Shown here in pieces: positions 51,319 to 63,506 of a stretch of 64,000 bases of DNA (positions are counted from its first letter, which is position 1; every line of letters starts with the position of its first letter). The position numbers were made by a program, and so were the translations under genes. Under the pieces are notes generated by a model, which was not told the DNA's origin, made no database searches, and saw only the letters and a program-made list of their open reading frames with translations. The stretch lies in IMG/VR virus record IMGVR_UViG_3300031994_000007; one strand, given 5' to 3'. The DNA is from a virus.

Positions 51319-51347
51319 TTGACATTTGCCCGGGCTTGTGATATTAT
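51319..51347 (+). promoter_or_regulatory. class A promoter (TTGACA-17-TATTAT, GCCCGGGC box in spacer)
   Basis: Sequence consensus. Confidence 0.6.
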
Positions 51348-51396
51348 AATACCAGAAAGAGAGAGATAAATAAATTAAAAGAAAGAGGTAAACAAA

Positions 51397-51624
51397 ATGA
51401 AAGAGATTAAGTACGCAATTCACAATAACAAGAATGAGGTTGTTGATTGGGCTAACACCGAAGCAGAAGCAGAAGCACTTGTCAAGAAAGCCGCTAAAAG
51501 AGGCTGGAAACGCACCATTCACAAAATCGAATGGACGATCAATGAAAACCCTGAAATCTGGGAACTCGAAGGTGGCAAGGAAGATCCCACCAAGGTGGAA
51601 TGGGGCAATAATGAAGAGTGGTAA
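51397..51624 (+). CDS. hypothetical early protein (75 aa)
   Basis: RBS AGAGG. TAA stop embedded in terminator hairpin GAAGAGTGG-TAAAAA-CCACTCTTC+T7. Confidence 0.65.
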   Translation: MKEIKYAIHNNKNEVVDWANTEAEAEALVKKAAKRGWKRTIHKIEWTINENPEIWELEGGKEDPTKVEWGNNEEW

Positions 51625-51655
51625 AAACCACTCTTCTTTTTTTATAAAAAAACTC

Positions 51656-51684
51656 TTGACAGATTGGCACATCCATGTTATAAT
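51656..51684 (+). promoter_or_regulatory. promoter TTGACA-17-TATAAT driving structured RNA copy 1
   Basis: Sequence consensus. Confidence 0.6.
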
Positions 51685-51690
51685 ACAATC

Positions 51691-51738
51691 ACAGGTTGAG
51701 GGAAACCACACGCGGGTAGTCGAGGGGAGAGACTAACT
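51691..51738 (+). ncRNA. repeated structured RNA element, copy 1
   Basis: ACAGGTTGAGGGAAACCACACGCGGGTAGTCGAGGGGAGAGACTAACT. Covarying helices across the 7 copies. Confidence 0.45.
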
Positions 51739-51781
51739 AAATAGTAACAAAAGAAAAACAAAAAGTTTCTAAAAATAGTTG

Positions 51782-51810
51782 TTGACAAATAACATCCTTT
51801 GTGCTATACT
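51782..51810 (+). promoter_or_regulatory. promoter TTGACA-17-TATACT
   Basis: Sequence consensus. Confidence 0.55.
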
Positions 51811-51846
51811 ATAATCACAAAGGGAAGAGAAAAGGAGATAACAAAG

Positions 51847-52155
51847 ATGATTAACATTAGAACTATCAACAAACTCACTGAGAATGATGGACTTACTCTT
51901 AAAAATGGTAAGCTTATCACTTACAAAAGCGGTTGGCAGGTTGCCACCGAGGGCGTAGAGTGCCACACCGCACGGGAAGCCATTAACGCGGTTAAGGCTT
52001 ACGGCGGTAACTGTGGGGTGTGGTTCGCTGGTGGTATCTACTACATCGACAAAAGCCACAGAGTCAATACCAAGCGCGAGGCGCTTGAAATTGGCAAAGC
52101 TCATAATCAAATCTCTGTTCTGGGCTGGCGTAAAATGGTTTTAGCGTACTGCTAA
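51847..52155 (+). CDS. hypothetical early protein (102 aa)
   Basis: RBS AAAGGAGATAACAAAG-ATG. 14-bp-stem terminator (AAAATGGTTTTAGC/GCTAAAACCATTTT) overlapping the stop. Confidence 0.65.
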   Translation: MINIRTINKLTENDGLTLKNGKLITYKSGWQVATEGVECHTAREAINAVKAYGGNCGVWFAGGIYYIDKSHRVNTKREALEIGKAHNQISVLGWRKMVLAYC

Positions 52156-52183
52156 AACCATTTTATTTTTTATAAAAAAATAC

Positions 52184-52212
52184 TTGACAAGTCAATCTAT
52201 CTATGCTATAAT
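52184..52212 (+). promoter_or_regulatory. promoter TTGACA-17-TATAAT driving structured RNA copy 2
   Basis: Sequence consensus. Confidence 0.6.
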
Positions 52213-52218
52213 ACAATC

Positions 52219-52268
52219 ACAGGTTGAGGGAAACCGCACTCGGGCAGGAGAGGGGAAGGACTGACTTA
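52219..52268 (+). ncRNA. repeated structured RNA element, copy 2
   Basis: ACAGGTTGAGGGAAACCGCACTCGGGCAGGAGAGGGGAAGGACTGACTT. Confidence 0.45.
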
Positions 52269-52318
52269 AAAGTAACAAAAGAATGACAAAAAATTTTTCT
52301 ATTTTTTTTGAAAAAATG

Positions 52319-52347
52319 CTTGACAAATCGCCCGGGCTTTGCTATAA
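52319..52347 (+). promoter_or_regulatory. class A promoter TTGACA-aatcGCCCGGGCtttgc-TATAAT
   Basis: Sequence consensus. Confidence 0.6.
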
Positions 52348-52380
52348 TACAATCAGAAAGAACAAGGGAGGACAAAAAAA

Positions 52381-52782
52381 ATGACTTACTACTTCGACAT
52401 GGATGGCGTTCTGGCTGACTTCCACTCTACTTACACTGAGCGCGCACAGGCTTTGAGCCGCGACTATCTTGCCAATCTCGCCCCGTTCGTTGAGAATGTC
52501 AAGACTGTCCGGAACCTCATTGCTCACGGTGAAAAGGTTTACATTCTCACCAAGGCCGCTAACGATGATGCCAAGGCTGGCAAAATTGACTGGCTGGCAA
52601 AGTACATCCCGGAAATTACGGCAGAACAGTTTATTTGCATCGTAGGCTCTGGTCGCAAGGTTGATTACATTCGTGAAGCTGGCATTCTTGTGGATGATGA
52701 TATTAAGAACATTCGGCAGTGGGTCAAAGGTGGCTTTGAGGGCTATCTGGTAGAGACTAAAGGTGCCACGGTTATTCTCTAA
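52381..52782 (+). CDS. HAD-superfamily 5'(3')-deoxyribonucleotidase-like protein (133 aa)
   Basis: N-terminal 'YYFDMDGVLADF' (DxDGV HAD motif I) and NT5C-like layout. RBS GGGAGGA. Paralog at 63036. Followed by hairpin terminator 52763-52800. Confidence 0.65.
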   Translation: MTYYFDMDGVLADFHSTYTERAQALSRDYLANLAPFVENVKTVRNLIAHGEKVYILTKAANDDAKAGKIDWLAKYIPEITAEQFICIVGSGRKVDYIREAGILVDDDIKNIRQWVKGGFEGYLVETKGATVIL

Positions 52783-52916
52783 CCGTGGCGCTTTCTATTT
52801 TGCCCGGGCAAAATCGCCAGCTCCGAAAGGCCCCGGACTTCACCACGCTAAAGTGGTGAAGTAAAAAACGCGAATGATTGTTAAACAAATAACAATAAAA
52901 AATGTCCCGAAACTAC

Positions 52917-52945
52917 TTGACAATAGGCACAATGTGTGGTAGAAT
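52917..52945 (+). promoter_or_regulatory. promoter TTGACA-17-TAGAAT
   Basis: Sequence consensus. Confidence 0.5.
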
Positions 52946-52977
52946 ACAGTCACCAAGAGGAAAAGAGGTAGACAGCA

Positions 52978-53382
52978 ATGACAATTAGATTCGCAACGAC
53001 TGCTGATGCTATCCGCATTATTAGGGCTATACAGAATAAACGCATGGACTACAATACGCCGCAAGATGTGCGGGAAGATGTGAACGCGGGGCGGCTGATT
53101 GTAGCAGAGGAAAACGGCAAGCTTTTAGGGTCTGTAGCTGTCGTGTATAAAGTCCATCGTGGTTATTATGCTATCATGAGAATGTGCGTGTATTCAAAAA
53201 CCAGCAAGGGCAAAGGGGTAGCAAGTGCGTTAATTGACTACGTGTTAGCTCTTGGCCTTGGCACTTATGGTGCAACGCCTTGGAATGACAATCCGGCCAT
53301 GATTCACATTTTTGTTAAAAGAGGTTTTGAGTACCAATACACATTCAAAAATAAATACGATTTTTATAAAAAAGGGGCTTGA
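52978..53382 (+). CDS. GNAT-family N-acetyltransferase-like protein (134 aa)
   Basis: 'LGSVAV...MRMCVYSKTSKGKGVASALIDYVL' resembles the acetyl-CoA-binding motif A. The TGA stop is the TTGACA -35 of the next promoter. Confidence 0.55.
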   Translation: MTIRFATTADAIRIIRAIQNKRMDYNTPQDVREDVNAGRLIVAEENGKLLGSVAVVYKVHRGYYAIMRMCVYSKTSKGKGVASALIDYVLALGLGTYGATPWNDNPAMIHIFVKRGFEYQYTFKNKYDFYKKGA

Positions 53383-53407
53383 CAAGTTCAAGCCCTTATG
53401 TTATAAT
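53379..53407 (+). promoter_or_regulatory. class B promoter (TTGACA embedded in GGGGCTTGA...TCAAGCCC hairpin)-17-TATAAT
   Basis: Sequence consensus. Confidence 0.6.
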
Positions 53408-53436
53408 ACAATCACAAAAGAAAAGGAGATAAAAAA

Positions 53437-53607
53437 ATGTTTAATGTTTACTACATCCGCAATGGGTATGAACTCAACGCTAAATTTGAAAAAAGAGGAA
53501 GTGCTCTTTTATTTGCTCATAATTTTGTATCTATGTTAGGCGGAGATTATGCCGCTGTTACTGATACAGAAACAAATAAAACTATACAAGTTTATAGCAG
53601 ATACTAA
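53437..53607 (+). CDS. hypothetical early protein (56 aa)
   Basis: RBS AAAGGAGATAAAAAA-ATG. Terminator AGGCTGA-TTCAGCCT+T6 at 53608-53640. Confidence 0.6.
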   Translation: MFNVYYIRNGYELNAKFEKRGSALLFAHNFVSMLGGDYAAVTDTETNKTIQVYSRY

Positions 53608-53659
53608 AAAAGGCTGATTCAGCCTTTTTTATTTACATTAAAAAAAATGAAAAAAGTGC

Positions 53660-53688
53660 TTGACAAATCGCCCGGGCAATGTTATAAT
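53660..53688 (+). promoter_or_regulatory. class A promoter driving structured RNA copy 3
   Basis: TTGACA-aatcGCCCGGGCaatgt-TATAAT. Confidence 0.6.
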
Positions 53689-53694
53689 ACAATC

Positions 53695-53745
53695 ACAGGC
53701 TGAGGGAAGCCCCACGCGGGGAGACGAGGGGAGAGACTGACTTAA
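53695..53745 (+). ncRNA. repeated structured RNA element, copy 3
   Basis: ACAGGCTGAGGGAAGCCCCACGCGGGGAGACGAGGGGAGAGACTGACTT (compensatory changes relative to copies 1/2). Confidence 0.45.
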
Positions 53746-53795
53746 AAGTAACAAATTGATGACAAAAAAATTTTTAAAAAAAATGAAAAAAGTGC

Positions 53796-53824
53796 TTGAC
53801 AATTTGCCCGGGCTGTGCTATACT
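53796..53824 (+). promoter_or_regulatory. class A promoter TTGACA-17-TATACT
   Basis: Sequence consensus. Confidence 0.55.
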
Positions 53825-53876
53825 ATAATCAGAAAGAGGGAAGGAAAACCCAAATAAACCGGAAAGGAAGAAAAAG

Positions 53877-53984
53877 ATGGAATTTTACAGTATGGAACAG
53901 TTCGAGATTCTGGGCGACCTGATGGAAGACTATCAGGAGTGGCTGGACTTTGAAGAGGACATGAAAACTAATCCTTGGGGCTGA
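53877..53984 (+). CDS. very acidic micro-protein (35 aa)
   Basis: MEFYSMEQFEILGDLMEDYQEWLDFEEDMKTNPWG. RBS GGAAAGGAAG. Stop within hairpin CCTTGGGGCTGAAAAAAGCCCCAAGG. Confidence 0.5.
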   Translation: MEFYSMEQFEILGDLMEDYQEWLDFEEDMKTNPWG

Positions 53985-54014
53985 AAAAAGCCCCAAGGAA
54001 ATTAAAAAAAGTAC

Positions 54015-54043
54015 TTGACAAGTAAGACAAAGTATGTTATAAT
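54015..54043 (+). promoter_or_regulatory. promoter TTGACA-17-TATAAT
   Basis: Sequence consensus. Confidence 0.6.
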
Positions 54044-54075
54044 ACAACCAGAAAGAAAGAAAAGGAGATAAAAAA

Positions 54076-54246
54076 ATGTACATCGTAACTGCTTACAAGA
54101 TTTGGGAAGAGTTTGAAGACTACAACAAAGCCGAACTGTACTTCGCCGCTTTGAAACATGGTGGGTACAAGTATGTGGAACTGAAAAAGAAAACCACGAC
54201 CGACAAATACGAATACTTTGAAAGTATCAAAATCTTTGTAAAATAA
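54076..54246 (+). CDS. hypothetical early protein (56 aa)
   Basis: RBS AAAGGAGATAAAAAA-ATG. TAA stop. Confidence 0.6.
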   Translation: MYIVTAYKIWEEFEDYNKAELYFAALKHGGYKYVELKKKTTTDKYEYFESIKIFVK

Positions 54247-54259
54247 TTAAAAAAGGGGC

Positions 54260-54289
54260 TTGACAAATCAAGCCCCTATGTGATATAAT
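54260..54289 (+). promoter_or_regulatory. class B hairpin promoter
   Basis: GGGGCTTGACAAATCAAGCCCC...TATAAT. Confidence 0.55.
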
Positions 54290-54321
54290 AAAGGCACAAA
54301 AGAAAAAAGGAGATTAAAAAA

Positions 54322-54471
54322 ATGACTATTCGTGAATTTTATAATTGGGCTGTCGCTAATGATGTTGAGGATTTTTGGTTTGGTGAAATGTTCCCCAATG
54401 GGATTGAAGTCTTTGAAATTGAAGATTTCACAATCAATACTGATAATAATTTTGTTTCTATCAACAATTAA
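54322..54471 (+). CDS. hypothetical early protein (49 aa)
   Basis: RBS AAGGAGATTAAAAAA-ATG. Confidence 0.55.
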   Translation: MTIREFYNWAVANDVEDFWFGEMFPNGIEVFEIEDFTINTDNNFVSINN

Positions 54472-54492
54472 AAAAATAATTAAAAAAGGGGC

Positions 54493-54521
54493 TTGACAAG
54501 ACAAGCCCCTTGTGTTATAAT
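54493..54521 (+). promoter_or_regulatory. class B hairpin promoter
   Basis: GGGGCTTGACAAGACAAGCCCC-TTGTGT-TATAAT. Confidence 0.6.
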
Positions 54522-54553
54522 GTAATCACAAAAGAGAAAAGGAGATAAAAAAA

Positions 54554-54709
54554 ATGAAAATGATTCAGAACATCGAATGCGGTAACATCTTCCCCTATAC
54601 CCTTGAGGGATTGATCGAAATGAGAGAAGAAGCCCGTGAACTTTACGATATTGAAGATCCCACTAATGCGGTGAGCATTTCCGAATACTATCAAATTATC
54701 ACGCTGTAA
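54554..54709 (+). CDS. hypothetical early protein (51 aa)
   Basis: RBS AAAGGAGATAAAAAAA-ATG. Strong terminator TCACGCTGTAAAAAGCGTGA+T9 (54695-54730). Confidence 0.6.
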   Translation: MKMIQNIECGNIFPYTLEGLIEMREEARELYDIEDPTNAVSISEYYQIITL

Positions 54710-54738
54710 AAAGCGTGATTTTTTTTTTGAAAAAGTGC

Positions 54739-54767
54739 TTGACAAATCGCCCGGGCAATGCTATAAT
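54739..54767 (+). promoter_or_regulatory. class A promoter driving structured RNA copy 4
   Basis: TTGACA-aatcGCCCGGGCaatgc-TATAAT. Confidence 0.6.
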
Positions 54768-54773
54768 ACAATC

Positions 54774-54824
54774 ACAGGTTGAAGGAAACCGCACCGGGGC
54801 AGAGGAGGGGAGAGACTGACTTAA
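54774..54824 (+). ncRNA. repeated structured RNA element, copy 4
   Basis: ACAGGTTGAAGGAAACCGCACCGGGGCAGAGGAGGGGAGAGACTGACTT. Confidence 0.45.
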
Positions 54825-54863
54825 TAGTTACAAAAGAAAAACAAAAAATTTCTAAAAAAAACT

Positions 54864-54892
54864 CTTGACATTTGCCCGGTCTTGTGATATTA
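54864..54892 (+). promoter_or_regulatory. class A-like promoter TTGACA-17-TATTAT
   Basis: Spacer tttGCCCGGtCttgtga (one mismatch to the box). Confidence 0.55.
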
Positions 54893-54945
54893 TAATACCA
54901 GAAAGAGGGAAGGAAAACCCAATAAACCAGAAGGGAAAAGAAAAG

Positions 54946-55377
54946 ATGAAAGAACTATACAGAGTGGAGCACATGACCAGAAGTGACTATGATGAATACA
55001 TGTGCGGGGGCTATAACTATAGGGTGCAGAAAATAAATGTGCTCGCGGAAAACCTGCAGGACGCCGCCCAAATCGTTAAAGAAATGTTCCCGTCTCATGT
55101 AATTAATGATGGTTATGTCAAAACTGTCGCTGAACTTGAGGCAGAACAAGCGGCAAAGGAAGCAGAATGGGAAGCCGAAAAAAGGAAAAAAGCAGAGCAG
55201 AAAGCCAAAAAAGAAGCTTTTGAAAAAGCCCATCCTGAGATTGTGGCAGAGCGCAAAAGAAAAGCAAAAATTACCAGAGCAAAAACAACAATTAAAGGAC
55301 TTGAAAAGCAGATTGCAGAAGCTGAAAAGAATCTTGCATACTGGAAAGCAAAACTTGAAGAACTTGAAAAGGGCTGA
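54946..55377 (+). CDS. hypothetical early protein with Lys/Glu-rich coiled-coil C-terminus (143 aa)
   Basis: RBS-proximal ATG in frame with track ORF 54865..55377. Terminator AAAAGGGCT-GAAAAA-AGCCCTTTT+T. Confidence 0.6.
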   Translation: MKELYRVEHMTRSDYDEYMCGGYNYRVQKINVLAENLQDAAQIVKEMFPSHVINDGYVKTVAELEAEQAAKEAEWEAEKRKKAEQKAKKEAFEKAHPEIVAERKRKAKITRAKTTIKGLEKQIAEAEKNLAYWKAKLEELEKG

Positions 55378-55407
55378 AAAAAGCCCTTTTCTTTTTTTAG
55401 AAAAGTG

Positions 55408-55436
55408 CTTGACAAATCCCCCAACCTATGATACAA
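55408..55436 (+). promoter_or_regulatory. promoter TTGACA-17-TACAAT driving structured RNA copy 5
   Basis: Sequence consensus. Confidence 0.55.
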
Positions 55437-55442
55437 TACAAT

Positions 55443-55492
55443 CACAGGCGGAGGGACGCCCCACGCGGGGAGCCGAGGGGGAAGACTGACTT
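55443..55492 (+). ncRNA. repeated structured RNA element, copy 5
   Basis: ACAGGCGGAGGGACGCCCCACGCGGGGAGCCGAGGGGGAAGACTGACTT. Confidence 0.45.
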
Positions 55493-55533
55493 TAGGTTAC
55501 AAAATGGTAACAAAAAATTTCTAAAAAAAGTAG

Positions 55534-55562
55534 TTGACAAATGCCCGGGCTTGTGATATTAT
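55534..55562 (+). promoter_or_regulatory. class A promoter TTGACA-aatGCCCGGGCttgtga-TATTAT
   Basis: Preceded by a GTTAC-N6-GTAAC inverted repeat (55506-55521). Confidence 0.6.
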
Positions 55563-55597
55563 AATACCAGAAAAAGAAAAGAAAGGAAGTAAATACA

Positions 55598-55771
55598 ATG
55601 TATAGAATCAAAATCGAAAGCGAACATGCCCCCAATACTTACAAATGGTATAATAACCCTCAGCAAGCGCATCTTGTAGCCTATACCATTATTAAGAATA
55701 AGGACGCAAATATTGTAACAGTGGAAAACCTTAAAGAAAAAAAGATTGAAAAAATTTATAAAAGGGCTTGA
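55598..55771 (+). CDS. hypothetical early protein (57 aa)
   Basis: RBS GAAAGGAAG. TGA stop formed by the -35 TTGACA of the next promoter. Confidence 0.55.
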   Translation: MYRIKIESEHAPNTYKWYNNPQQAHLVAYTIIKNKDANIVTVENLKEKKIEKIYKRA

Positions 55772-55796
55772 CAAATAGCCCGGCCTATGGTATAAT
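55768..55796 (+). promoter_or_regulatory. class B-like promoter (GGGCTTGACAAATAGCCC)-TATAAT
   Basis: Sequence consensus. Confidence 0.55.
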
Positions 55797-55830
55797 AAAG
55801 GCACAAAGAAAGAAAAGGAGATAAAAGAAA

Positions 55831-55989
55831 ATGAACGTTAACGAAATCAAAGAAAGAATTGAAAAACTTGAACGCTGGTGCTGGTTTGAGCAGATGGCAG
55901 ATTTTATGAACTGGACAGCCTACAACAAAGCACAGGCTGAAATCAAAGAGTTGAAAAAAAAGTTAGCAGAAATTGAAAAAGGGGCTTGA
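55831..55989 (+). CDS. hypothetical early protein (52 aa)
   Basis: RBS AAAGGAGATAAAAGAAA-ATG. C-terminal KGA-TGA inside the next -35. Confidence 0.55.
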   Translation: MNVNEIKERIEKLERWCWFEQMADFMNWTAYNKAQAEIKELKKKLAEIEKGA

Positions 55990-56014
55990 CAAAACAAGCC
56001 CCAGATGGTATAAT
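55986..56014 (+). promoter_or_regulatory. class B hairpin promoter
   Basis: GGGGCTTGACAAAACAAGCCCC...TATAAT. Confidence 0.6.
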
Positions 56015-56048
56015 AAATACAGAAAGAAAGAAAAGGAGAATTAAAAAA

Positions 56049-56333
56049 ATGAGTTATTTTATGGGAAATGGTCGTGCCGATACTTGCCGCCACAACGATG
56101 AAGTTTATAAAGGCAAGGCGGTTGAGATGATGATTGATGTGCTGGAAACCCGCGACGGCTTTGAGCTTCGCAAGGCAAGCGACAGCACTGGAGCGGCGGC
56201 AAAGTTCCGCATCTTTTGGGACGGTGAGTGCATCAGCACCGTCTATAATGAAAAGGAAGCACGGGCACTGTTTAACGACTTCGCCCCAGCGCCCCAGCGG
56301 AAGGCGGGACGCCCTAAGAAGAATGCGGCATAA
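56049..56333 (+). CDS. hypothetical early protein (94 aa), basic C-terminus
   Basis: RBS AAAGGAGAATTAAAAAA-ATG. TAA stop. Confidence 0.6.
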   Translation: MSYFMGNGRADTCRHNDEVYKGKAVEMMIDVLETRDGFELRKASDSTGAAAKFRIFWDGECISTVYNEKEARALFNDFAPAPQRKAGRPKKNAA

Positions 56334-56379
56334 AAAGCCGCTTCTTCATCGCCCGGGCAAAGATTACAAAAGAAAAACA

Positions 56380-56408
56380 TTGACAAATAGCCAAAAGCAT
56401 GTTATAAT
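56380..56408 (+). promoter_or_regulatory. promoter TTGACA-17-TATAAT
   Basis: Preceded by tcGCCCGGGCaaag just after the upstream stop. Confidence 0.6.
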
Positions 56409-58403: not shown

Positions 58404-58436
58404 ACAGACAGAAAGAAAGAAAAGGAGAATAAAACA

Positions 58437-58760
58437 ATGAAAGTTAAAATGAATCAGCTAACCTATCACGCAAAAGAAGAAAGACGCGATAGACGCGAAA
58501 TCGTCAAACAAGTTGGAATTGGTAAACCAATAGCACAGGTTAAAAAATTCAATGACAATGGTAGAGAAAAAATTGAAATGCTCACAGATACAGGGCTGGT
58601 TATTATAATGGGTGATGATAATAAAATCATAACTCTTTACCTTGCGAGTACCGCAAAAGCGGCAGCCATTTATAAATCAGCACACGGCGCAAATGCAAAA
58701 ATGCCTGCACAAATCTTTGAACAAATCAAAATAAATCGTATCATGTTCCCCGCTGATTAA
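58437..58760 (+). CDS. hypothetical early protein (107 aa)
   Basis: RBS AAAAGGAGAATAAAACA-ATG. Terminator TCCCCGCT-GATTAA-AGCGGGGA. Confidence 0.65.
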   Translation: MKVKMNQLTYHAKEERRDRREIVKQVGIGKPIAQVKKFNDNGREKIEMLTDTGLVIIMGDDNKIITLYLASTAKAAAIYKSAHGANAKMPAQIFEQIKINRIMFPAD

Positions 58761-58769
58761 AGCGGGGAC

Positions 58770-58798
58770 TTGATTTTTATAAAAAAAAATGATATAAT
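58770..58798 (+). promoter_or_regulatory. promoter TTGATT-17-TATAAT
   Basis: Overlaps the upstream terminator tail. Confidence 0.45.
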
Positions 58799-58834
58799 AA
58801 ATTATAAAATAAAATAAAGGAGGCCGAAAAAGTT

Positions 58835-58951
58835 ATGGACTTAATGCTTGCCCGGGCACTTTTAGCAATCGCAAAGTATTGCGCTTCTTGTGATGATTGT
58901 GATAAATGTGCTTTACATGAATTCTGCGGGAAAATACCATTAGAGTGGTAA
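58835..58951 (+). CDS. Cys-rich micro-protein (38 aa, C-x2-C-x2-C-x2-C...C)
   Basis: MDLMLARALLAIAKYCASCDDCDKCALHEFCGKIPLEW. RBS AAAGGAGG. Followed by two GC hairpins (58960-59060). Confidence 0.45.
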   Translation: MDLMLARALLAIAKYCASCDDCDKCALHEFCGKIPLEW

Positions 58952-59067
58952 TTAACGCGGCGACCGCACCCAATCGGGGCGGTTCGAACTTTCGCACGGT
59001 AAAGCGTTGAAGAATTTTTCGGCCATTAAGTCGGGCAAAACTTTTAATGTTTTTTGCCCGAAACCTA

Positions 59068-59096
59068 TTGACAAATAAATACTCTTGTGTTATACT
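59068..59096 (+). promoter_or_regulatory. promoter TTGACA-17-TATACT
   Basis: Sequence consensus. Confidence 0.55.
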
Positions 59097-59145
59097 ATAA
59101 TTGTTCCAAGAGAGAACAACAAAAACAAAAAAGGAGAATACAACA

Positions 59146-59328
59146 ATGTATAATGTGCGGTTTACTGACACCATCCATGGTGAGATGGAAGAGAACTTTG
59201 ATAGCTATGATGCGGCTATGGAGTATTGGAATAGCTATGCTGATACCGAGTCTTGTGTGGCTGGTGTCATGATGGATTTGGATAATTGCGAAATTATCTG
59301 GAATTTTGACGACAGGGAGGCAGAATAA
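59146..59328 (+). CDS. acidic hypothetical early protein (60 aa)
   Basis: RBS AAAAGGAGAATACAACA-ATG. In frame with track ORF 59101..59328. Confidence 0.55.
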   Translation: MYNVRFTDTIHGEMEENFDSYDAAMEYWNSYADTESCVAGVMMDLDNCEIIWNFDDREAE

Positions 59329-59589
59329 ATGAAAAAGATTCTTGCTTTTGTCCTTGTTTTTGTTCTTATCCTATCGTTGGGCATAAGCGCTTATGCTTAT
59401 AATAAATCTATCTTTGATTTGAAATACCATTTCAATTATGCTTATGTAGATTTGTTAAATGGTACGACAGTTGAGGGTAAAGTCCAGAGTTGGAAAGACT
59501 GGGAAGATTCAGACATGTTGCAAGTCACTTTTGAGGATGGAGCTACTTATTATTCCCATTCTTCTAACATTATGCTTGTTTCAAAATAA
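59329..59589 (+). CDS. secreted/membrane-anchored small protein (86 aa) with N-terminal signal/TM segment
   Basis: MKKILAFVLVFVLILSLGISAYA... Start immediately follows the upstream TAA. RBS GGGAGG. Confidence 0.6.
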   Translation: MKKILAFVLVFVLILSLGISAYAYNKSIFDLKYHFNYAYVDLLNGTTVEGKVQSWKDWEDSDMLQVTFEDGATYYSHSSNIMLVSK

Positions 59590-59603
59590 TAATAAAAAAG
59601 GGC

Positions 59604-59632
59604 TTGACAAACAAGCCCTTTTGTGCTATTAT
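59604..59632 (+). promoter_or_regulatory. class B hairpin promoter
   Basis: AAGGGCTTGACAAACAAGCCCTT...TATTAT. Confidence 0.6.
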
Positions 59633-59662
59633 AATACCAGAAAAGGAAAGGGAAATAAAAAA

Positions 59663-59842
59663 ATGACTACTTACAGAGAACGCCTGCTTGACCGCATGAT
59701 TGCCCTTTATGGGCTTGAAAATCCAATTGTTATCGAGTTTGCCAATATGTGCGAAAAATATGGGGATAATTCTTGGAATGATGATTTTCTGCGGCTCTTG
59801 GTAGAAGCCCATGAAGCAGACCCAGTTTTTAAGGAAGATTAA
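59663..59842 (+). CDS. hypothetical early protein (59 aa)
   Basis: RBS AAAGGGAAATAAAAAA-ATG. Terminator GGAAGATT-AAAA-ATCTTCC. Confidence 0.55.
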   Translation: MTTYRERLLDRMIALYGLENPIVIEFANMCEKYGDNSWNDDFLRLLVEAHEADPVFKED

Positions 59843-59888
59843 AAATCTTCCTTAATCGCCCGGGCAGAAAAGTGACAAAAGAAAGACA

Positions 59889-59917
59889 TTGACAAACTAT
59901 AAATAATGTGTTATAAT
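59889..59917 (+). promoter_or_regulatory. promoter TTGACA-17-TATAAT
   Basis: Preceded by aatcGCCCGGGCagaaaag. Confidence 0.6.
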
Positions 59918-59948
59918 AAAGGCACAAAAAGAAAAGGAGAATAAAACA

Positions 59949-60386
59949 ATGAATAAAGTTTTCAACAAAATAAAGACATGGGCTGAACCTGTGAGCGATT
60001 GGTGGTTTTTTAATTGGGAAGCTGTTGTAGTTATAATTTTTATAGCGGCTGTGCTTATTGGGCTTGTGGTACTCGCTTTATGGGCTTCTGGTGCTTTTTA
60101 TGATGAAGTCGAAAATTATGACTTCACAGCGCAGGTGTATGATAAAGACCACTATACCACTCAATCAGTAAGTTATATTACTTCTGGTAAAACTCGCATT
60201 CCTGTATACCATACTCATCATCACTACAAAGTAATGTGGGAAGATGGTGGAGAACGTGGTACATTTGAAATTGGTGAAGACCATTATGATTTAATTAAAA
60301 TCGGGGACTTTATCAATGTTCATTGCTCTGTGAGGGCAGACAAGCAGGGTGAACTTCATTATTATTATAGTTTCAAGGGATATTAA
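59949..60386 (+). CDS. membrane protein (145 aa) with one TM helix and His-rich segment
   Basis: TM 'AVVVIIFIAAVLIGLVVLALWA'. RBS AAAAGGAGAATAAAACA-ATG. Terminator CAAGGGAT-ATTAAA-ATCCCTTG. Confidence 0.65.
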   Translation: MNKVFNKIKTWAEPVSDWWFFNWEAVVVIIFIAAVLIGLVVLALWASGAFYDEVENYDFTAQVYDKDHYTTQSVSYITSGKTRIPVYHTHHHYKVMWEDGGERGTFEIGEDHYDLIKIGDFINVHCSVRADKQGELHYYYSFKGY

Positions 60387-60415
60387 AATCCCTTGAAATT
60401 TTTTTCAAAAAGTGC

Positions 60416-60444
60416 TTGACAAGTCCAAAAGAGTATGTTATAAT
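60416..60444 (+). promoter_or_regulatory. promoter TTGACA-17-TATAAT
   Basis: Sequence consensus. Confidence 0.6.
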
Positions 60445-60477
60445 GAAGGCACAAAGAAAGAAAAGGAGAATAAAAAA

Positions 60478-60939
60478 ATGAATAACGAAGTAATTAAGGC
60501 AATGAATAAACAGCCCCGTAAAAAAAGCAATTTTCAAAAGTGGTGGGAACAAAACGATTATAAAGTTTGGCGTGTCGTGCTGTTCCCCATTTGGATTTAT
60601 GTGTGGAGCAGAGAAAAAATTAAAACTTATCTTAATTCCCGTACAGTATGGAATGAAAACAGAGCGAATGAAATACTTAGTTATTACATTCCCCGCTGTG
60701 CTCGTTGGAATAATGAAAATAAAACCTTTTATTATTTTAATAATGGGTATGGATGGGAAATGGGCTTTGCTAAAAAGTATTTGAAAATTAAAGACCGTAG
60801 ATTTTGGAATCTTTATGCGTGTTGGCGTATTCGTGATTATCTTATCAAAAATTTTGAACTGGAAGGGTTCACCAAAGAAATTGGTAACTGCTACGATGGC
60901 TGGACTGAAATCACTTTCAGAATGAAAACAGAGGATTAA
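60478..60939 (+). CDS. Trp/aromatic-rich hypothetical early protein (153 aa)
   Basis: RBS AAAAGGAGAATAAAAAA-ATG. In frame with track ORF 60412..60939. Terminator ACAGAGGATT-A5-ATCCTCTGT+T7. Confidence 0.65.
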   Translation: MNNEVIKAMNKQPRKKSNFQKWWEQNDYKVWRVVLFPIWIYVWSREKIKTYLNSRTVWNENRANEILSYYIPRCARWNNENKTFYYFNNGYGWEMGFAKKYLKIKDRRFWNLYACWRIRDYLIKNFELEGFTKEIGNCYDGWTEITFRMKTED

Positions 60940-60968
60940 AAAATCCTCTGTTTTTTTCAAAAAAGGGC

Positions 60969-60997
60969 TTGACAAATCGCCCGGGCTATGTTATATT
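60969..60997 (+). promoter_or_regulatory. class A promoter driving structured RNA copy 7 (variant)
   Basis: TTGACA-aatcGCCCGGGCtatgt-TATATT. Confidence 0.55.
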
Positions 60998-61003
60998 ATA
61001 GTC

Positions 61004-61050
61004 ACAGGCGGAGGGACGCCACACTCGGGTAGTAGAGGGGGAGGCTTTTT
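61004..61050 (+). ncRNA. repeated structured RNA element, copy 7 (divergent 3' end with T-run)
   Basis: ACAGGCGGAGGGACGCCACACTCGGGTAGTAGAGGGGGAGGCTTTTTTT. Confidence 0.4.
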
Positions 61051-61119
61051 TTATTTGGAGAATGTGGGGGAGGTTGCCCGGGCGGCGGCAAAAGAAAAAC
61101 AAAAAATTACAAAAAAAGA

Positions 61120-61148
61120 CATTGACAAATAACCAGAAGTATGCTATT
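61120..61148 (+). promoter_or_regulatory. promoter TTGACA-17-TATTAT
   Basis: Preceded by gttGCCCGGGCggcggc. Confidence 0.55.
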
Positions 61149-61184
61149 ATAATACCAGAAAGAGAGATAAAGGAGGACAAAAAA

Positions 61185-61373
61185 ATGTATTTCGTTCTTG
61201 ATATTGTCAGTAATAAAACGGTCGCAATGACCGCTTTTAGAGACGCGGCGGAAATTATCGCCGCAAACTTCCCCGCAAAGTGCGTAGTTCGCTACGCCGC
61301 TGAAATAGTTAGCGGGTATTCTAAAGACAGCCTGTTCTTTGAGAATGAGCAGGAAATGAAAAAAGGGGCTTGA
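61185..61373 (+). CDS. hypothetical early protein (62 aa)
   Basis: RBS AAAGGAGGACAAAAAA-ATG. KKGA-TGA stop inside the next -35. Confidence 0.55.
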   Translation: MYFVLDIVSNKTVAMTAFRDAAEIIAANFPAKCVVRYAAEIVSGYSKDSLFFENEQEMKKGA

Positions 61374-61398
61374 CAAAATAGCCCCTTTATGATACAAT
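61370..61398 (+). promoter_or_regulatory. class B-like promoter TTGACA-17-TACAAT
   Basis: GGGGCTTGACAAAATAGCCCC. Confidence 0.55.
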
Positions 61399-61428
61399 AC
61401 CAATAGAAACAGAAAAGGAGAAATACAA

Positions 61429-61548
61429 ATGATGTATGACATTTATCCCTGCGATCTTGACCCATTCGGGGAGTGCCCGAAGCATTGTCAGGATTGCGCC
61501 CATTGCGTGGGCTGGTTCATGGATGAACCAGAGGACGAAGAAAATTAA
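61429..61548 (+). CDS. Cys-rich micro-protein (39 aa; putative zinc-binding)
   Basis: MMYDIYPCDLDPFGECPKHCQDCAHCVGWFMDEPEDEEN. RBS AAAAGGAGAAATACAA-ATG. Confidence 0.5.
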   Translation: MMYDIYPCDLDPFGECPKHCQDCAHCVGWFMDEPEDEEN

Positions 61549-61557
61549 AAAAGGGGC

Positions 61558-61586
61558 TTGACAAATACAACCCCCTGTGCTATAAT
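61558..61586 (+). promoter_or_regulatory. class B-like promoter TTGACA-17-TATAAT
   Basis: GGGGCTTGACAAATACAACCCCC. Confidence 0.55.
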
Positions 61587-61613
61587 AAAGACACAATAAA
61601 GGAGATGAAAACA

Positions 61614-61667
61614 ATGAAAGCACGACCGCCGCCCGCAAGGGCATGTGATTGGATTACTAATAATTAG
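61614..61667 (+). CDS. 17-aa micro-ORF (MKARPPPARACDWITNN) terminated by TAG
   Basis: RBS AAAGGAGATGAAAACA-ATG. The only TAG-terminated ORF in the early array. If TAG is read through it extends 9 codons to a TAA overlapping the next micro-ORF ATG (TAATG). Confidence 0.35.
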   Translation: MKARPPPARACDWITNN

Positions 61668-61687
61668 ATAGTAATGTATAGGAGAAT

Positions 61688-61827
61688 AAACTAATGAATA
61701 GAATTAGAGATGAGACGAAAACCTTTTAAGGTTTTCTAATAGATAGTATAGAATAGAAAGATAATAGAAAATGAGGAAAAACTAATGAATAGAATTAGAG
61801 ATGAGACTAAAACCTTTTAAGGTTTTT
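61688..61827 (+). repeat. tandem duplicated micro-ORF units (2 x ~48 bp, ~92 bp apart), each RBS + MNRIRDETKTF + stop-overlapping hairpin
   Basis: Units at 61688-61735 and 61780-61827 differ by 1 nt. ORFs at 61694..61729 and 61785..61820. Hairpin AAAACCTTTTAAGGTTTT. The surrounding 230 nt is unusually dense in TAG triplets. Confidence 0.5.
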
Positions 61828-61942
61828 GATGAATAGAATAGAATGATAGTAATAAAATAGAATAGAAGTAAGTGCCAAGGGGCGGCTCGGTTGGAGGATG
61901 GAAGTAGCCGAAAAAATTTTTCAAAAAATTTTGAAAAACCCC

Positions 61943-61971
61943 TTGACAAATGCCCGGGCATTTGTTATAAT
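61943..61971 (+). promoter_or_regulatory. class A promoter TTGACA-aatGCCCGGGCatttgt-TATAAT
   Basis: Sequence consensus. Confidence 0.6.
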
Positions 61972-62005
61972 ACAATCACAAAGAGAAAACAAGGAGAAAA
62001 AGAAA

Positions 62006-62119
62006 ATGATGACTAACGATTATTGGGAAGCTCACGAAGCCGAATGGCTTGCCGCTCAGGAGTGCATGGAGTGGCTCCTGTTTGAGGCCGACATGGCCAC
62101 TGACCCCTACCGGGATTAA
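62006..62119 (+). CDS. acidic micro-protein (37 aa)
   Basis: MMTNDYWEAHEAEWLAAQECMEWLLFEADMATDPYRD. RBS AAGGAGAAAAAGAAA-ATG. Hairpin CCCTACCGGG-attaaaa-CCCGGTAGGG overlaps the stop. Confidence 0.5.
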   Translation: MMTNDYWEAHEAEWLAAQECMEWLLFEADMATDPYRD

Positions 62120-62140
62120 AACCCGGTAGGGAGAAAATAC

Positions 62141-62169
62141 TTGACAAGTCCAAAAGTGTATGATATAAT
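62141..62169 (+). promoter_or_regulatory. promoter TTGACA-17-TATAAT
   Basis: Sequence consensus. Confidence 0.6.
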
Positions 62170-62198
62170 TAAGGCACAAAAACAAAGGAGATAAAAAA

Positions 62199-62516
62199 AT
62201 GAGAACTTGTAAAAACTGCGGTTGTTATCTTCCAGATAATTGGACTACTTGCCCCGCATGTTTTATGGATGAAAAGCAAGTTGAACATAAAACAGAAAAA
62301 CAGATTGATTCACACAAAGAGTCTTTTCTTAATAACATTTGCCGCGTTGATACATTCCATAAAAACAATACTAAAACATCAAATGTTTTTGCCTCTTATG
62401 AATACGCTATTAGATTTGCTCATTATATAGCTTGCGAATCTGACATAGCAATGGTTATTGTAACTGACATTCCCAGTGGGAAAATAATTGAAAAACTTTC
62501 TCGTAAAGGGTATTGA
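62199..62516 (+). CDS. zinc-ribbon protein (105 aa; C-x2-C-x10-C-x2-C N-terminus)
   Basis: MRTCKNCGCYLPDNWTTCPACF... RBS AAAGGAGATAAAAAA-ATG. TGA stop inside the next -35 (tatTGAcaa). Confidence 0.6.
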   Translation: MRTCKNCGCYLPDNWTTCPACFMDEKQVEHKTEKQIDSHKESFLNNICRVDTFHKNNTKTSNVFASYEYAIRFAHYIACESDIAMVIVTDIPSGKIIEKLSRKGY

Positions 62517-62541
62517 CAAATCCAAAAGCGTATGGTATAAT
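62513..62541 (+). promoter_or_regulatory. promoter TTGACA-17-TATAAT
   Basis: Sequence consensus. Confidence 0.6.
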
Positions 62542-62572
62542 TAAGGCACAAAAGGAAAAGGAGATAAGAAAA

Positions 62573-62713
62573 ATGTACGAATACGAAATTCGCTATCTGG
62601 CAACTGGTGAGACTGATTTTCTGTATGGATATTCTCGTCAGGACTTGGCAAGACGCTATCCCGAAATCCCAACCGATACTTATGTTATCATCTGCCGCGA
62701 GTACATCGACTGA
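62573..62713 (+). CDS. hypothetical early protein (46 aa)
   Basis: RBS AAAAGGAGATAAGAAAA-ATG. In frame with track ORF 62513..62713. Confidence 0.5.
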   Translation: MYEYEIRYLATGETDFLYGYSRQDLARRYPEIPTDTYVIICREYID

Positions 62714-62794
62714 TGGCTCGCGGTTTTCTATTCATTTTTTTAGAATGGTTATGCATTGTATAAGCATACATTATAAATGAATTTTATACGGGCT

Positions 62795-62835
62795 ATTTTC
62801 GGCGCGCCGCTCCTGGCCGACGCGGCGCGTTTTTC
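62795..62835 (+). terminator. GC-rich intrinsic terminator
   Basis: CGCGCCGC-tcctggccga-GCGGCGCG followed by TTTTT. Contains GGCGCGCC. Confidence 0.6.
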
Positions 62836-62974
62836 GCTGTAATAATTCTGCCACAATTTTGTCATCAATTTGTAACACATTCGCACAAACAGGCAAAGTC
62901 CCGAAATGAATAATTATACAATGAATAATGAATAAAAATTCAAAAAATTTTTTTGAAAAAATTAAAAAAAAGTG

Positions 62975-63003
62975 TTGACAAACGCCCGGGCATCTGCTAT
63001 AAT
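62975..63003 (+). promoter_or_regulatory. class A promoter TTGACA-aacGCCCGGGCatctgc-TATAAT
   Basis: Sequence consensus. Confidence 0.6.
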
Positions 63004-63035
63004 CATAGACAGAAAGGGACAAGGAGGATAAAAAA

Positions 63036-63443
63036 ATGACTAACTACTACTTCGACATGGACGGCGTTCTGGCTGACTTCCACGGTGCTTATACTGATAG
63101 GGCACAGGCTTTTCAGTATGATTTTATTGCTAACCTTGCCCCATTTACCGCAAATGTTGAACTTGCAAAGTCCCTCATAGCACAGGGCAATCGGGTTTAT
63201 ATCTCCACCATTGCCGCAAGTGAAGAAGCAAAGCAGGCGAAAATTGATTGGCTTGCTAAGTATCTTCCGGAAATCCCCAGCTATCGTATCATTATCATTG
63301 TTGGGCATGGTAACAAGGCCGAACACATGAGAACAAAGACCGGAATCCTCATTGACGACAAGCGCGCCAACTGCCGCCAATGGGAAAAGGCCGGACAGCG
63401 TGCGGTGTGGCTGGAAATCAAGGGGGGAGCAATCTCCCTTTGA
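63036..63443 (+). CDS. HAD-superfamily 5'(3')-deoxyribonucleotidase-like protein, paralog 2 (135 aa)
   Basis: Shares 'YYFDMDGVLADFH..Y..RAQA...ANLAPF...AKIDWLAKY(I/L)PEI' with 52381..52782 (~50% identity). RBS AAGGAGGATAAAAAA-ATG. Confidence 0.65.
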   Translation: MTNYYFDMDGVLADFHGAYTDRAQAFQYDFIANLAPFTANVELAKSLIAQGNRVYISTIAASEEAKQAKIDWLAKYLPEIPSYRIIIIVGHGNKAEHMRTKTGILIDDKRANCRQWEKAGQRAVWLEIKGGAISL

Positions 63444-63477
63444 TTCTAAAAAAAATTGTTTTGTAACTATTTTGTAG

Positions 63478-63506
63478 TTGATTTTGCCCGGGCTATTTGT
63501 TATAAT
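63478..63506 (+). promoter_or_regulatory. class A-like promoter TTGATT-ttGCCCGGGCtatttgt-TATAAT
   Basis: Sequence consensus. Confidence 0.5.

What the first reader, a model, noticed from the sequence alone, without database searches (positions are those of the whole stretch)
51319..63506. Over-represented GCCCGGGC box placed 4-5 nt after the -35 hexamer or just after gene ends
The 8-bp palindrome GCCCGGGC occurs about 20 times in about 13 kb (expected far less than 1). Class A promoters nearly always carry it at a fixed spacer position (TTGACAaatcGCCCGGGCaatgcTATAAT). It also follows several terminator hairpins (56351, 56630, 57241, 59866, 61075). The fixed geometry inside the promoter spacer suggests an operator for a dimeric regulator or a structural/positioning element. 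It also creates SmaI/XmaI sites.
Basis: seen in the sequence. Interest (0 to 1): 0.7.

Follow-up and report, generated by a model that had tools for sequence, protein, structure and literature searches.

The report
Repeated GCCCGGGC box in phage early region
An exact 8-base palindrome, GCCCGGGC, marks about half of the small early transcription units of an uncultivated large phage, is kept by selection, and is probably the docking site for a phage protein with a restriction-enzyme-like predicted fold that controls the early genes as a block.

Summary
GCCCGGGC occurs 20 times, all within 51328-63493, against about 0.07 expected. Nineteen of the 20 copies are non-coding. There are only 4 one-mismatch variants, and every CCCGGG lies inside the full 8-mer.

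The window is a TAG-recoded phage of Bacillota. This stretch is its standard-code early module, with 39 consensus sigma-A-type promoters driving tiny ORFs.

The "fixed position in the spacer" is not a rule. Thirteen copies sit 1-4 nt after the -35. Six follow terminator hairpins, 29-115 bp before the next -35. One is inside a 38-aa ORF.

A near-identical contig continues with 12 more boxes. Of 157 non-redundant boxes in related phages, only 29 are in spacers. The usual layout is terminator, box, A/T-rich inverted repeat, promoter.

Against orthologous intergenic DNA the box is 99.4% conserved, the flanks 90.4%.

Best reading: a multi-copy, two-fold-symmetric protein site for block control of early transcription, comparable to stoperators or SPBRE/MrpR. 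Binding is inferred, not shown.

The parts
51328..51335 (.). box in promoter spacer (TTGACA ttt GCCCGGGC; -35 at 51319)
52330..52337 (.). box in promoter spacer, offset 4 (-35 at 52320); drives the NT5C-like ORF 52381-52782
52802..52809 (.). box directly after a terminator hairpin and T-run, 115 bp before the next -35
53670..53677 (.). box in promoter spacer, offset 4; this promoter drives the repeated ~45-nt RNA-like element
53806..53813 (.). box in promoter spacer, offset 4
54749..54756 (.). box in promoter spacer, offset 4; drives the RNA-like element
55543..55550 (.). box in promoter spacer, offset 3
56351..56358 (.). box after a terminator hairpin, 29 bp before the -35 at 56380
56632..56639 (.). 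box after terminator and T-run, 31 bp before the -35 at 56663
57242..57249 (.). box after a terminator, 51 bp before the -35 at 57293
57302..57309 (.). box in promoter spacer, offset 3
57925..57932 (.). box in promoter spacer, offset 4; drives the RNA-like element
58057..58064 (.). box in promoter spacer, offset 1 (GGCTTGACAAGCCCGGGC)
58850..58857 (.). box inside the 5' end of the 38-aa ORF 58835-58951; conserved in L090, L123 and L120
59858..59865 (.). box after a terminator, 31 bp before the -35 at 59889
60979..60986 (.). box in promoter spacer, offset 4; drives a variant of the RNA-like element
61076..61083 (.). box after the end of that RNA element, 46 bp before the -35 at 61122
61952..61959 (.). 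box in promoter spacer, offset 3
62984..62991 (.). box in promoter spacer, offset 3; drives the second NT5C-like ORF
63486..63493 (.). box in the spacer of the weaker promoter (TTGATT 63478-63483, TATAAT 63501-63506) of the candidate binder gene
63538..63972 (+). [not shown]
51216..63506 (+). early module: 39 perfect TTGACA-N17-TAnnnT promoters, about 34 small ORFs in the standard code, 37-41% GC

Best explanation
GCCCGGGC (extended B-GCCCGGGC-V) is a multi-copy recognition site on the DNA for a two-fold-symmetric, sequence-specific protein. It tags the transcription units of the phage's early 'host-takeover'-like module and lets them be controlled as a block.

My proposal for how it works is as follows. 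The binder is made from the early region itself. The best candidate is the 144-aa protein at 63538-63972, whose predicted fold resembles restriction endonucleases and whose own promoter carries a box. As this protein accumulates it occupies the boxes.
- A box inside a promoter spacer would then occlude RNA polymerase.
- A box just downstream of a terminator and upstream of the next promoter would act as a roadblock or insulator.
The net effect would be shut-off or insulation of early transcription.

Shown: the enrichment, the exactness, the intergenic placement, the symmetry, the purifying selection, the presence of the box in several lineages and its absence from others, and the co-occurrence with the candidate gene.
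Inferred: that a protein binds the box, which protein it is, that it binds without cutting, and the direction of the effect on transcription.
For: Enrichment and exactness:
- 20 copies against about 0.07 expected.
- Only 4 one-mismatch variants.
- Every CCCGGG lies inside the 8-mer, and no other G/C-only 8-mer is enriched.

Placement:
- 19 of 20 copies are non-coding (p = 7e-8).
- There is roughly one box per transcription unit, in the early module only. All 58 sigma-anchored relatives (those with at least 3 kb of early region) have no box on the late-gene side, but at about 28-40% GC few or none are expected there anyway.

Symmetry: at position -1 the counts are C66/T41/G18/A1, and at +1 they are G59/A29/C25/T13, roughly complementary.

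Selection: in 20 orthologous comparisons (about 14 independent) there is 1 change in 160 box positions, against 9.6% divergence in the flanks.

Constant element in varying surroundings: the same 8-mer sits next to LexA-type CGAACATATGTTCG boxes, TTGTTAA..TTAACAA repeats or TTGTGCA..TGCACAA repeats in different lineages.

Candidate binder:
- The protein family was found in 13 of 28 box-rich loci and 2 of 45 box-free loci.
- Among sigma-anchored loci, 7 of 12 with the gene have at least 3 boxes, against 4 of 39 without it (p = 0.0015).
- Six further contigs chosen only by homology to the protein all carry canonical boxes: 2, 1, 1, 12, 6 and 15 copies.
- A box lies in the gene's own promoter in the window, in L127 and in L169.
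- D44, V52, K53, S54 and E102 are invariant, and S51 and K125 are nearly so.
Against: - No binding data exist, and the co-occurrence is not corrected for shared ancestry.
- One lineage (L151) has the gene but no full box. L154 also has none, although 3 CCCGGG occur in its 8.3 kb.
- Three of the six homology-picked contigs have only 1-2 full boxes among 28-33 promoters.
- Some box-rich fragments (L111, L058, L015) show no copy of the gene in the 9-14 kb sampled.
- Only about half of the early promoters in the window have a box within 70 bp, so this cannot be the only control.
- Boxes 40-60 bp upstream of a -35 would not occlude RNA polymerase, so a single repression mechanism does not cover all positions.
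Confidence: 0.45

Rival explanations
1. The boxes are cleavage or nicking sites for an active phage endonuclease (the same restriction-endonuclease-fold protein). That enzyme would make programmed breaks in the early region, for example to start recombination-dependent replication or to drive cassette exchange. The phage would then be protected at other times by methylation or base modification.
For: - The restriction-endonuclease-like fold, the conserved D..SVK and E102.
- An exact 8-bp G/C palindrome with almost no degenerate copies is typical of restriction-type recognition.
- The early module is mosaic, with single ORFs swapped between relatives.
Against: - Sites that are cut should be lost from the phage's own genome, not kept by selection in 30 or more copies.
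- Synteny breakpoints against L120 lie at start codons and at the ends of the regulatory linkers. Only one block boundary (57240) lies beside a box (57242), so there is no general coincidence.
- No cytosine methyltransferase motif was found in the sampled loci, although only about 20 kb per genome was sampled.
Confidence: 0.17
2. The box is read by some other protein. This could be a host factor, or a different phage protein encoded outside the sampled DNA, such as a DNA methyltransferase that gives epigenetic control of early promoters. The restriction-endonuclease-fold gene would then merely travel with the box.
For: - The box is the same in lineages whose A/T-rich operator-like repeats differ, as expected of a conserved or host-encoded reader.
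- The box is present in some lineages and absent from others, which could follow host range.
- Exceptions to the gene-box association exist: L151, and the low counts in L214-L216.
Against: - No known Bacillota regulator site matches the box, to my knowledge.
- The gene-box association held in 6 of 6 independently chosen contigs.
- Hosts are unknown. Only metagenome-assembled genome contigs of mixed taxonomy carry relatives.
Confidence: 0.2
3. The box has a protein-independent role as a G/C clamp. Placed right after the terminator T-run, a pyrimidine followed by G resembles a pause site, and a stable downstream duplex could aid termination or isolate strong neighbouring promoters.
For: - 91 of 128 non-spacer boxes lie 0-12 nt after a stable hairpin.
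- Position -1 is a pyrimidine in 85% of copies and the box starts with G.
- The surrounding intergenic DNA is A/T-rich, 34% GC.
Against: - Only one specific G/C 8-mer is used and it is conserved to the base. A clamp would tolerate any G/C-rich string.
- The flank preferences are symmetric, which a strand-specific RNA polymerase signal does not predict.
- Many related lineages have the same terminator-promoter architecture without any box.
Confidence: 0.08
4. The box is a passive passenger. It is over-represented only because promoter and terminator modules that happen to contain it were duplicated.
For: - Several box-bearing promoters are clear paralogues. The aatcGCCCGGGCaatgcTATAAT promoter recurs about 5 times in front of the repeated RNA element, as does the tttGCCCGGGCttgtgaTATTAT type.
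- Three terminator-type copies share the downstream string AAAAGTTACAAAAGAAA.
Against: - The box occurs in many unrelated flanks in the window and across divergent lineages.
- It is far better conserved than its flanks.
- Its edges are sharply defined.
Confidence: 0.05

Closest known systems
Stoperators and operators of Cluster A mycobacteriophages (L5/Bxb1-type immunity repressor), PMC9283540
   Same: - More than twenty copies of one short, well-conserved site are spread through a phage genome.
- Some copies lie in promoters (operators) and others in short intergenic gaps (stoperators).
- The sites silence initiation and elongation across many transcription units.
   Different: - Stoperators are 13-bp asymmetric sites read by a monomer, and they depend on orientation. 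This box is an 8-10 bp perfect palindrome.
- The hosts, the phage type and the candidate protein fold all differ.
- No lysogeny is evident here.
SPBRE repeated element bound by the master repressor MrpR of Bacillus phage SPbeta, PMC10516654
   Same: - A repeated element in the promoter or intergenic regions of a large Bacillota siphophage. The terminase of this window is distantly related to those of SPbeta-like phages.
- SPBRE was predicted in silico long before its binder was found.
- That binder is an enzyme fold (tyrosine recombinase) that has lost catalysis. This would parallel a non-cutting restriction-endonuclease-fold binder.
   Different: - SPBRE is a 15-bp motif present in about ten promoter regions of a temperate phage.
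- Here the site is 8 bp, is present in 30 or more copies, often follows terminators, and sits in a phage with no sign of lysogeny.
- No MrpR-like gene was seen in the sampled DNA.
PeSL composite early-promoter/terminator cassettes of T4-like phages, PMC2839356 and PMC4122927
   Same: Conserved terminator-promoter linkers flank small, variable early ORFs, and single ORFs are swapped between close relatives.
   Different: PeSLs act through homology of the whole linker. The box is a discrete 8-mer within, or next to, such linkers. It is conserved beyond them, and it is not the observed crossover point.
Type II restriction sites SmaI/XmaI (CCCGGG) and SrfI (GCCCGGGC), from my own knowledge
   Same: The sequence is identical, and the candidate reader has a predicted fold resembling type II restriction endonucleases.
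   Different: A restriction target is normally avoided in the genome that meets the enzyme. Here it is accumulated and conserved in the genome that encodes the protein. No methyltransferase partner was found.

Membership tests
Stoperator-type multi-copy phage repressor sites | Many near-identical copies of one site in a single phage genome, in promoters and in short intergenic gaps | tested here: met
   20 copies in the window plus 12 in the adjoining 10 kb. Thirteen are in spacers and the others follow terminators.
Stoperator-type multi-copy phage repressor sites | Asymmetric 13-bp site whose orientation follows the direction of transcription | tested here: not met
   The box is a perfect palindrome with roughly symmetric flank preferences.
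Stoperator-type multi-copy phage repressor sites | Bound by the phage immunity repressor, blocking initiation and elongation | not testable with these tools
   No binding or transcription data. No integrase or repressor was seen in the sampled DNA.
SPBRE/MrpR system of SPbeta-like phages | 15-bp SPBRE motif in promoter regions | tested here: not met
   The element here is 8-10 bp, with nothing conserved beyond +/-1. The SPBRE sequence itself was not available for direct comparison.
SPBRE/MrpR system of SPbeta-like phages | MrpR (tyrosine-recombinase-fold) repressor gene | not tested
   Only the window and about 20-kb samples of relatives were available. No such gene was noticed.
Type II restriction-modification target site | Short exact palindrome read by a PD-(D/E)XK enzyme | tested here: inconclusive
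   [not shown]
Type II restriction-modification target site | Cognate methyltransferase, and avoidance of the site in unprotected genomes | tested here: not met
   No methyltransferase motif in the sampled loci. The site is enriched about 300-fold, not avoided.
PeSL-like mobile regulatory cassettes | Conserved promoter-terminator linkers at the borders of swapped ORFs | tested here: met
   In window versus L120, ORFs are replaced while the linkers are retained. This describes the module, not the box itself.
PeSL-like mobile regulatory cassettes | Exchange points coincide with the element | tested here: not met
   Left breakpoints are at the ATG and right breakpoints are at varied points after the stop codon. 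Only one block boundary (57240) lies beside a box.
   The gene is present with no boxes in L133-141, L152, L162 and L179-195. Boxes are present without the gene in L142, L161, L169, L155, L157, L176 and L197. The same holds for a second AbrB-like gene.

The most novel reading that the evidence does not exclude
A family of large TAG-recoded gut and rumen phages uses a restriction-endonuclease-fold protein together with dozens of copies of its 8-bp site, planted at the borders of its own early transcription units. The pair would work either as a global early-gene switch with a non-cutting protein, or as a set of programmed self-cleavage points. Either way, restriction-type recognition would have been turned inward as a regulatory or genome-processing device.
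Probability: 0.25. Interest if true: 0.75.

Novelty: new variant of a known kind. Interest (0 to 1): 0.62.

Why it matters
Early 'host-takeover' modules of large phages of Gram-positive bacteria are packed with strong promoters and genes of unknown function, and how they are switched off is mostly unknown. This study provides three things:
- a clean cis element that is conserved across several lineages;
- a concrete candidate protein;
- natural controls, namely sister lineages that have the same promoter architecture but lack the box.

Together these make the question directly testable for an uncultivated, stop-codon-recoded phage family. It would also supply a compact 8-bp operator and binder pair for synthetic biology in Bacillota.

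Tried and rejected
- Rfam, at gathering thresholds and at E <= 5: no known RNA family in the region.
- Megablast and blastn of the early region and of a canonical module against GenBank phages: no match.
- Full-text search for the motif: only primers and vectors.
- AbrB-like regulator as the binder: rejected by co-occurrence.
- A different G/C palindrome playing the same role in box-free lineages: rejected. GCGCGC, CCGCGG, CGGCCG and similar strings there lie in coding DNA or in terminator stems.
- The box as part of a hairpin enclosing the -35 (GGGC..GCCC): this holds for only a few promoters (inspection).
- The box as the crossover point of cassette shuffling: not supported.
- ParB/Noc-type 14-16 bp site: nothing is conserved beyond +/-1.
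- Sequence-family assignment of the candidate protein with Pfam, PHROGs, NCBIfam, PDB sequences and a PDB profile search: all negative.
- Foldseek against the PDB: nothing significant. Foldseek against BFVD: one uncharacterised gut phage protein.
- The search for related loci with the broad protein alignment: failed because no conserved stretch was found. With the narrow alignment it returned one locus.
- Host identification through reference genomes: only metagenome-assembled genome contigs of mixed taxonomy.
- The described relative phAss-1: no box in 41 kb.


Full report
**What the window is**

Positions 1-50000 have 23-34% GC and negative GC skew. Under the standard code they carry almost no long ORFs. 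They become fully coding on the minus strand if TAG is read through: ORF coverage rises from 0.41 to 1.05, with ORFs of 3110, 2709 and 1605 aa.

These ORFs include a portal protein, a large terminase subunit and a phage sigma factor (PHROGs). The 407-aa ORF at 39528-40751, which I take from its position to be the major capsid protein, matches only a PHROG of unknown function. The terminase is 44-48% identical to those of Enterococcus phages EF1 and H1, Geobacillus virus E3 and the code-15 gut phage phAss-1, and 32-35% identical to Brevibacillus phage Sundance ('putative protein YonF') and several ~165-kb Bacillus phages (PMC10607447).

From about 51.2 kb the strand, the composition (37-41% GC) and the genetic code all change. 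This stretch holds 39 perfect TTGACA-N17-TAnnnT promoters with TGn extended -10 elements. Each is followed by a strong ribosome-binding site and a tiny ORF. Most ORFs match no family. The exceptions are two NT5C-type nucleotidases and a GNAT acetyltransferase.

I read this as an early 'host-takeover'-type module transcribed by the host sigma-A polymerase. That reading is an inference from architecture, by analogy with the early modules of large Bacillota phages.

**The observation**

GCCCGGGC occurs 20 times, all between 51328 and 63493. Expected counts are 0.08 from whole-window shuffles and 0.066 (maximum 2) from 1000 dinucleotide shuffles of the early region alone.

The motif is unusually sharp:
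- Only four one-mismatch variants exist in the window.
- All 20 CCCGGG hexamers are embedded in the full 8-mer.
- No other G/C-only 8-mer is enriched.
- Nineteen of 20 copies are non-coding, although 63% of the region is coding and the non-coding DNA is more A/T-rich (p = 7e-8).

**Position**

Thirteen copies lie in promoter spacers, 1, 2, 3 (x5) or 4 (x6) nt after the -35 hexamer. The spacer is 17 bp and its last five or so bases hold the conserved TGn motif. An 8-bp insert can therefore only sit at offsets of about 0-5, so the 'fixed geometry' is largely a packing constraint.

Six copies (52802, 56351, 56632, 57242, 59858, 61076) directly follow a terminator hairpin and lie 29-115 bp before the next -35. 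One copy (58850) is in the fifth to eighth codons of a 38-aa ORF and is conserved there in relatives. Only 12 of the 39 consensus promoters carry the box.

**Beyond the window**

A near-identical metagenomic contig (L199) runs 10 kb past the window's end and carries 12 more boxes. There the layout is: terminator hairpin, (c)GCCCGGGC(g), 3-5 nt, TTGTTAAATAAATAAC, an A/T-rich stretch, then TTGACA or TTGACT. The box typically starts 42 bp before the -35.

Pattern and protein searches of IMG/VR recovered many related 110-190 kb phage contigs with the same sigma factor and the same dense early promoters. The box is strongly enriched in some lineages and absent from others that keep 10-20 consensus promoters per 10 kb.

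Of 157 non-redundant boxes:
- 29 are in spacers, almost all in the window's own sub-lineage;
- 86 lie 23-63 bp upstream of a -35;
- 91 of the 128 non-spacer copies lie 0-12 nt after a stable hairpin.

The box is thus a feature of individual transcription units and intergenic regions, not a promoter-spacer element. In this compact sub-lineage terminators overlap promoters. Here the spacer is often the only free space.

**Specificity, symmetry and selection**

The flanks extend the palindrome weakly. At -1 the counts are C66/T41/G18/A1, and at +1 they are G59/A29/C25/T13, that is B-GCCCGGGC-V. This symmetry fits recognition of duplex DNA by a dimer. It does not fit a strand-specific signal for RNA polymerase.

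In 20 orthologous comparisons with L120, L123 and L090, one change occurred in 160 box positions, against 9.6% divergence in the 30-bp flanks. L123 and L090 are the same contig, so about 14 comparisons are independent. Even so, roughly 11 changes would be expected where one is seen.

The elements around the box differ between lineages:
- perfect LexA-type CGAACATATGTTCG boxes in L022 and L220;
- TTGTTAA..TTAACAA repeats;
- TTGTGCA..TGCACAA repeats;
- GTTAC..GTAAC repeats in the window.

The box itself stays the same throughout. Lineages without the box have no substitute G/C palindrome.

**Who reads it**

An unbiased clustering of all ORFs in the related loci gave one family clearly associated with box-rich loci, found in 13 of 28 box-rich and 2 of 45 box-free loci. 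Its member in the window is the 144-aa ORF at 63538-63972.

Further evidence on this family:
- Among sigma-anchored loci with at least 6 kb of early region, 7 of 12 with the gene have at least 3 boxes, against 4 of 39 without it (p = 0.0015, uncorrected for phylogeny). Two of those four are the window's own lineage, where the gene lies outside the sampled 10 kb.
- As an independent test I fetched six contigs chosen only by homology to this protein, at 25-35% identity. All six carry canonical boxes after terminators: 2, 1 (+4 CCCGGG variants), 1 (+2 variants), 12, 6 and 15 copies.
- The gene's own promoter carries the box in the window (with a weakened TTGATT -35), in L127 and in L169, and degenerate half-boxes in other lineages.

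Foldseek against the PDB gave nothing significant, so I rate the fold assignment as moderate. Exceptions to the association exist: L151 has the gene and no full box, and three of the six test contigs have few boxes.

**Mechanism**

The most economical reading is a multi-copy recognition site for a symmetric DNA-binding protein that acts on the early module as a whole.
- A spacer copy would occlude RNA polymerase.
- A copy at the terminator-promoter junction would act as a roadblock or insulator.

This is how Cluster A mycobacteriophage operators and stoperators work (PMC9283540). It is also close to SPBRE/MrpR in SPbeta, where a repeated intergenic element predicted in silico turned out to be bound by a catalytically dead enzyme fold (PMC10516654).

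Binding, the identity of the binder, the absence of cutting and the sign of the effect are all inferences.

A cutting or nicking role is possible but fits poorly with selection keeping 30 or more sites in the phage's own genome. Synteny breakpoints do not generally fall at the box. Instead single ORFs are swapped while the terminator-promoter-RBS linkers are kept, as with PeSLs in T4-like phages (PMC2839356, PMC4122927).

A sequence-independent G/C clamp is contradicted by the use of a single 8-mer. Hitch-hiking on duplicated promoters explains some copies (the paralogous aatcGCCCGGGCaatgcTATAAT promoters) but not the conservation or the variety of surrounding sequences.

**Novelty and verdict**

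Nothing matching this element was found in the literature searched or in GenBank phages. The described relative phAss-1 lacks it in the 41 kb examined. I classify it as a new variant of a known kind, namely multi-copy phage regulatory sites. The candidate reader is unusual and testable.

The enrichment and the link to early promoters and terminators are confirmed. The fixed-spacer geometry and the AbrB candidate are not.

Noticed in passing
window 1-50600 (minus strand); 50123-50620 (+): The late and structural genes use TAG as a sense codon. Standard-code ORF coverage is 0.41, rising to 1.05 with TAG read-through, and 75-84 in-frame TAGs occur in the giant ORFs. The early module uses the standard code and has about 10 points higher GC. 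A DUF488-like ORF at 50123 also has in-frame TAG.
   Followed up: partly
window 51690, 52218, 53694, 54773, 55443, 57949, 61003 (+ strand, about 45 nt each): Seven copies of a small RNA-like element (CACAGG-YK-GAGGGA-MR-CC-N-CACNCGGG-N'-AG..GAGGGG..GACTGAC) lie directly behind strong promoters, with no ORF. Two short hairpins show compensatory changes. There is no Rfam match at any threshold. Function is unknown. The GGA-rich loops might suggest a protein sponge or a Shine-Dalgarno mimic, which is speculation.
   Followed up: partly
window 53379, 54260, 54493, 55986, 56914, 59604, 61370, 61558 and others: In a second promoter class the -35 hexamer lies inside a G/C-stemmed hairpin (GGGGCTTGACAAnnCAAGCCCC). 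That hairpin appears to be the upstream gene's terminator, so terminator and promoter overlap.
   Followed up: no
window 50690-50890; also 55497-55512, 57995-58010, 63455-63475: GTTAC-N6-GTAAC type inverted repeats occur here, together with two direct repeats of about 58 bp at the junction between the late and early modules. Relatives have other A/T-rich inverted repeats (TTGTTAA..TTAACAA, TTGTGCA..TGCACAA) between box and promoter. These are probably lineage-specific operators.
   Followed up: no
L022 4200-10800; L220 6300-16000: Perfect Bacillota LexA (Cheo) boxes, CGAACATATGTTCG, sit beside many GCCCGGGC boxes in two related lineages. This suggests SOS-linked control of their early modules.
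   Followed up: no
window 48702-49640 (-): A phage-encoded sigma-factor-like protein (phrog_5767, E 1.7e-44), containing TAG codons, heads the late gene block next to the early module. It is conserved in at least 80 IMG/VR contigs of 110-190 kb.
   Followed up: partly
window 51364-58723 compared with L120: Single early ORFs are replaced between close relatives while the terminator-promoter-RBS linkers are kept. This is PeSL-like modular shuffling.
   Followed up: partly
window 61640-61900: An A/T-rich tandem duplication of about 120 bp (aatgaatagaattagagatgaga..aaccttttaaggtt) lies in a stretch with no promoter or ORF, just upstream of the promoter at 61943.
   Followed up: no
L199 14908-14994 and 16016-16090 (equivalent to about 68.7 and 69.8 kb): tRNA-Leu(TAA) and tRNA-Lys(TTT) genes, and several promoter-driven non-coding stretches, lie in the continuation of the early region. 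No suppressor tRNA was found in the window or in L199.
   Followed up: no
L123 upstream 10 kb: The parS-like core TTCACGTGAA occurs 4 times (expected 0.011) in the early region of a close relative.
   Followed up: no
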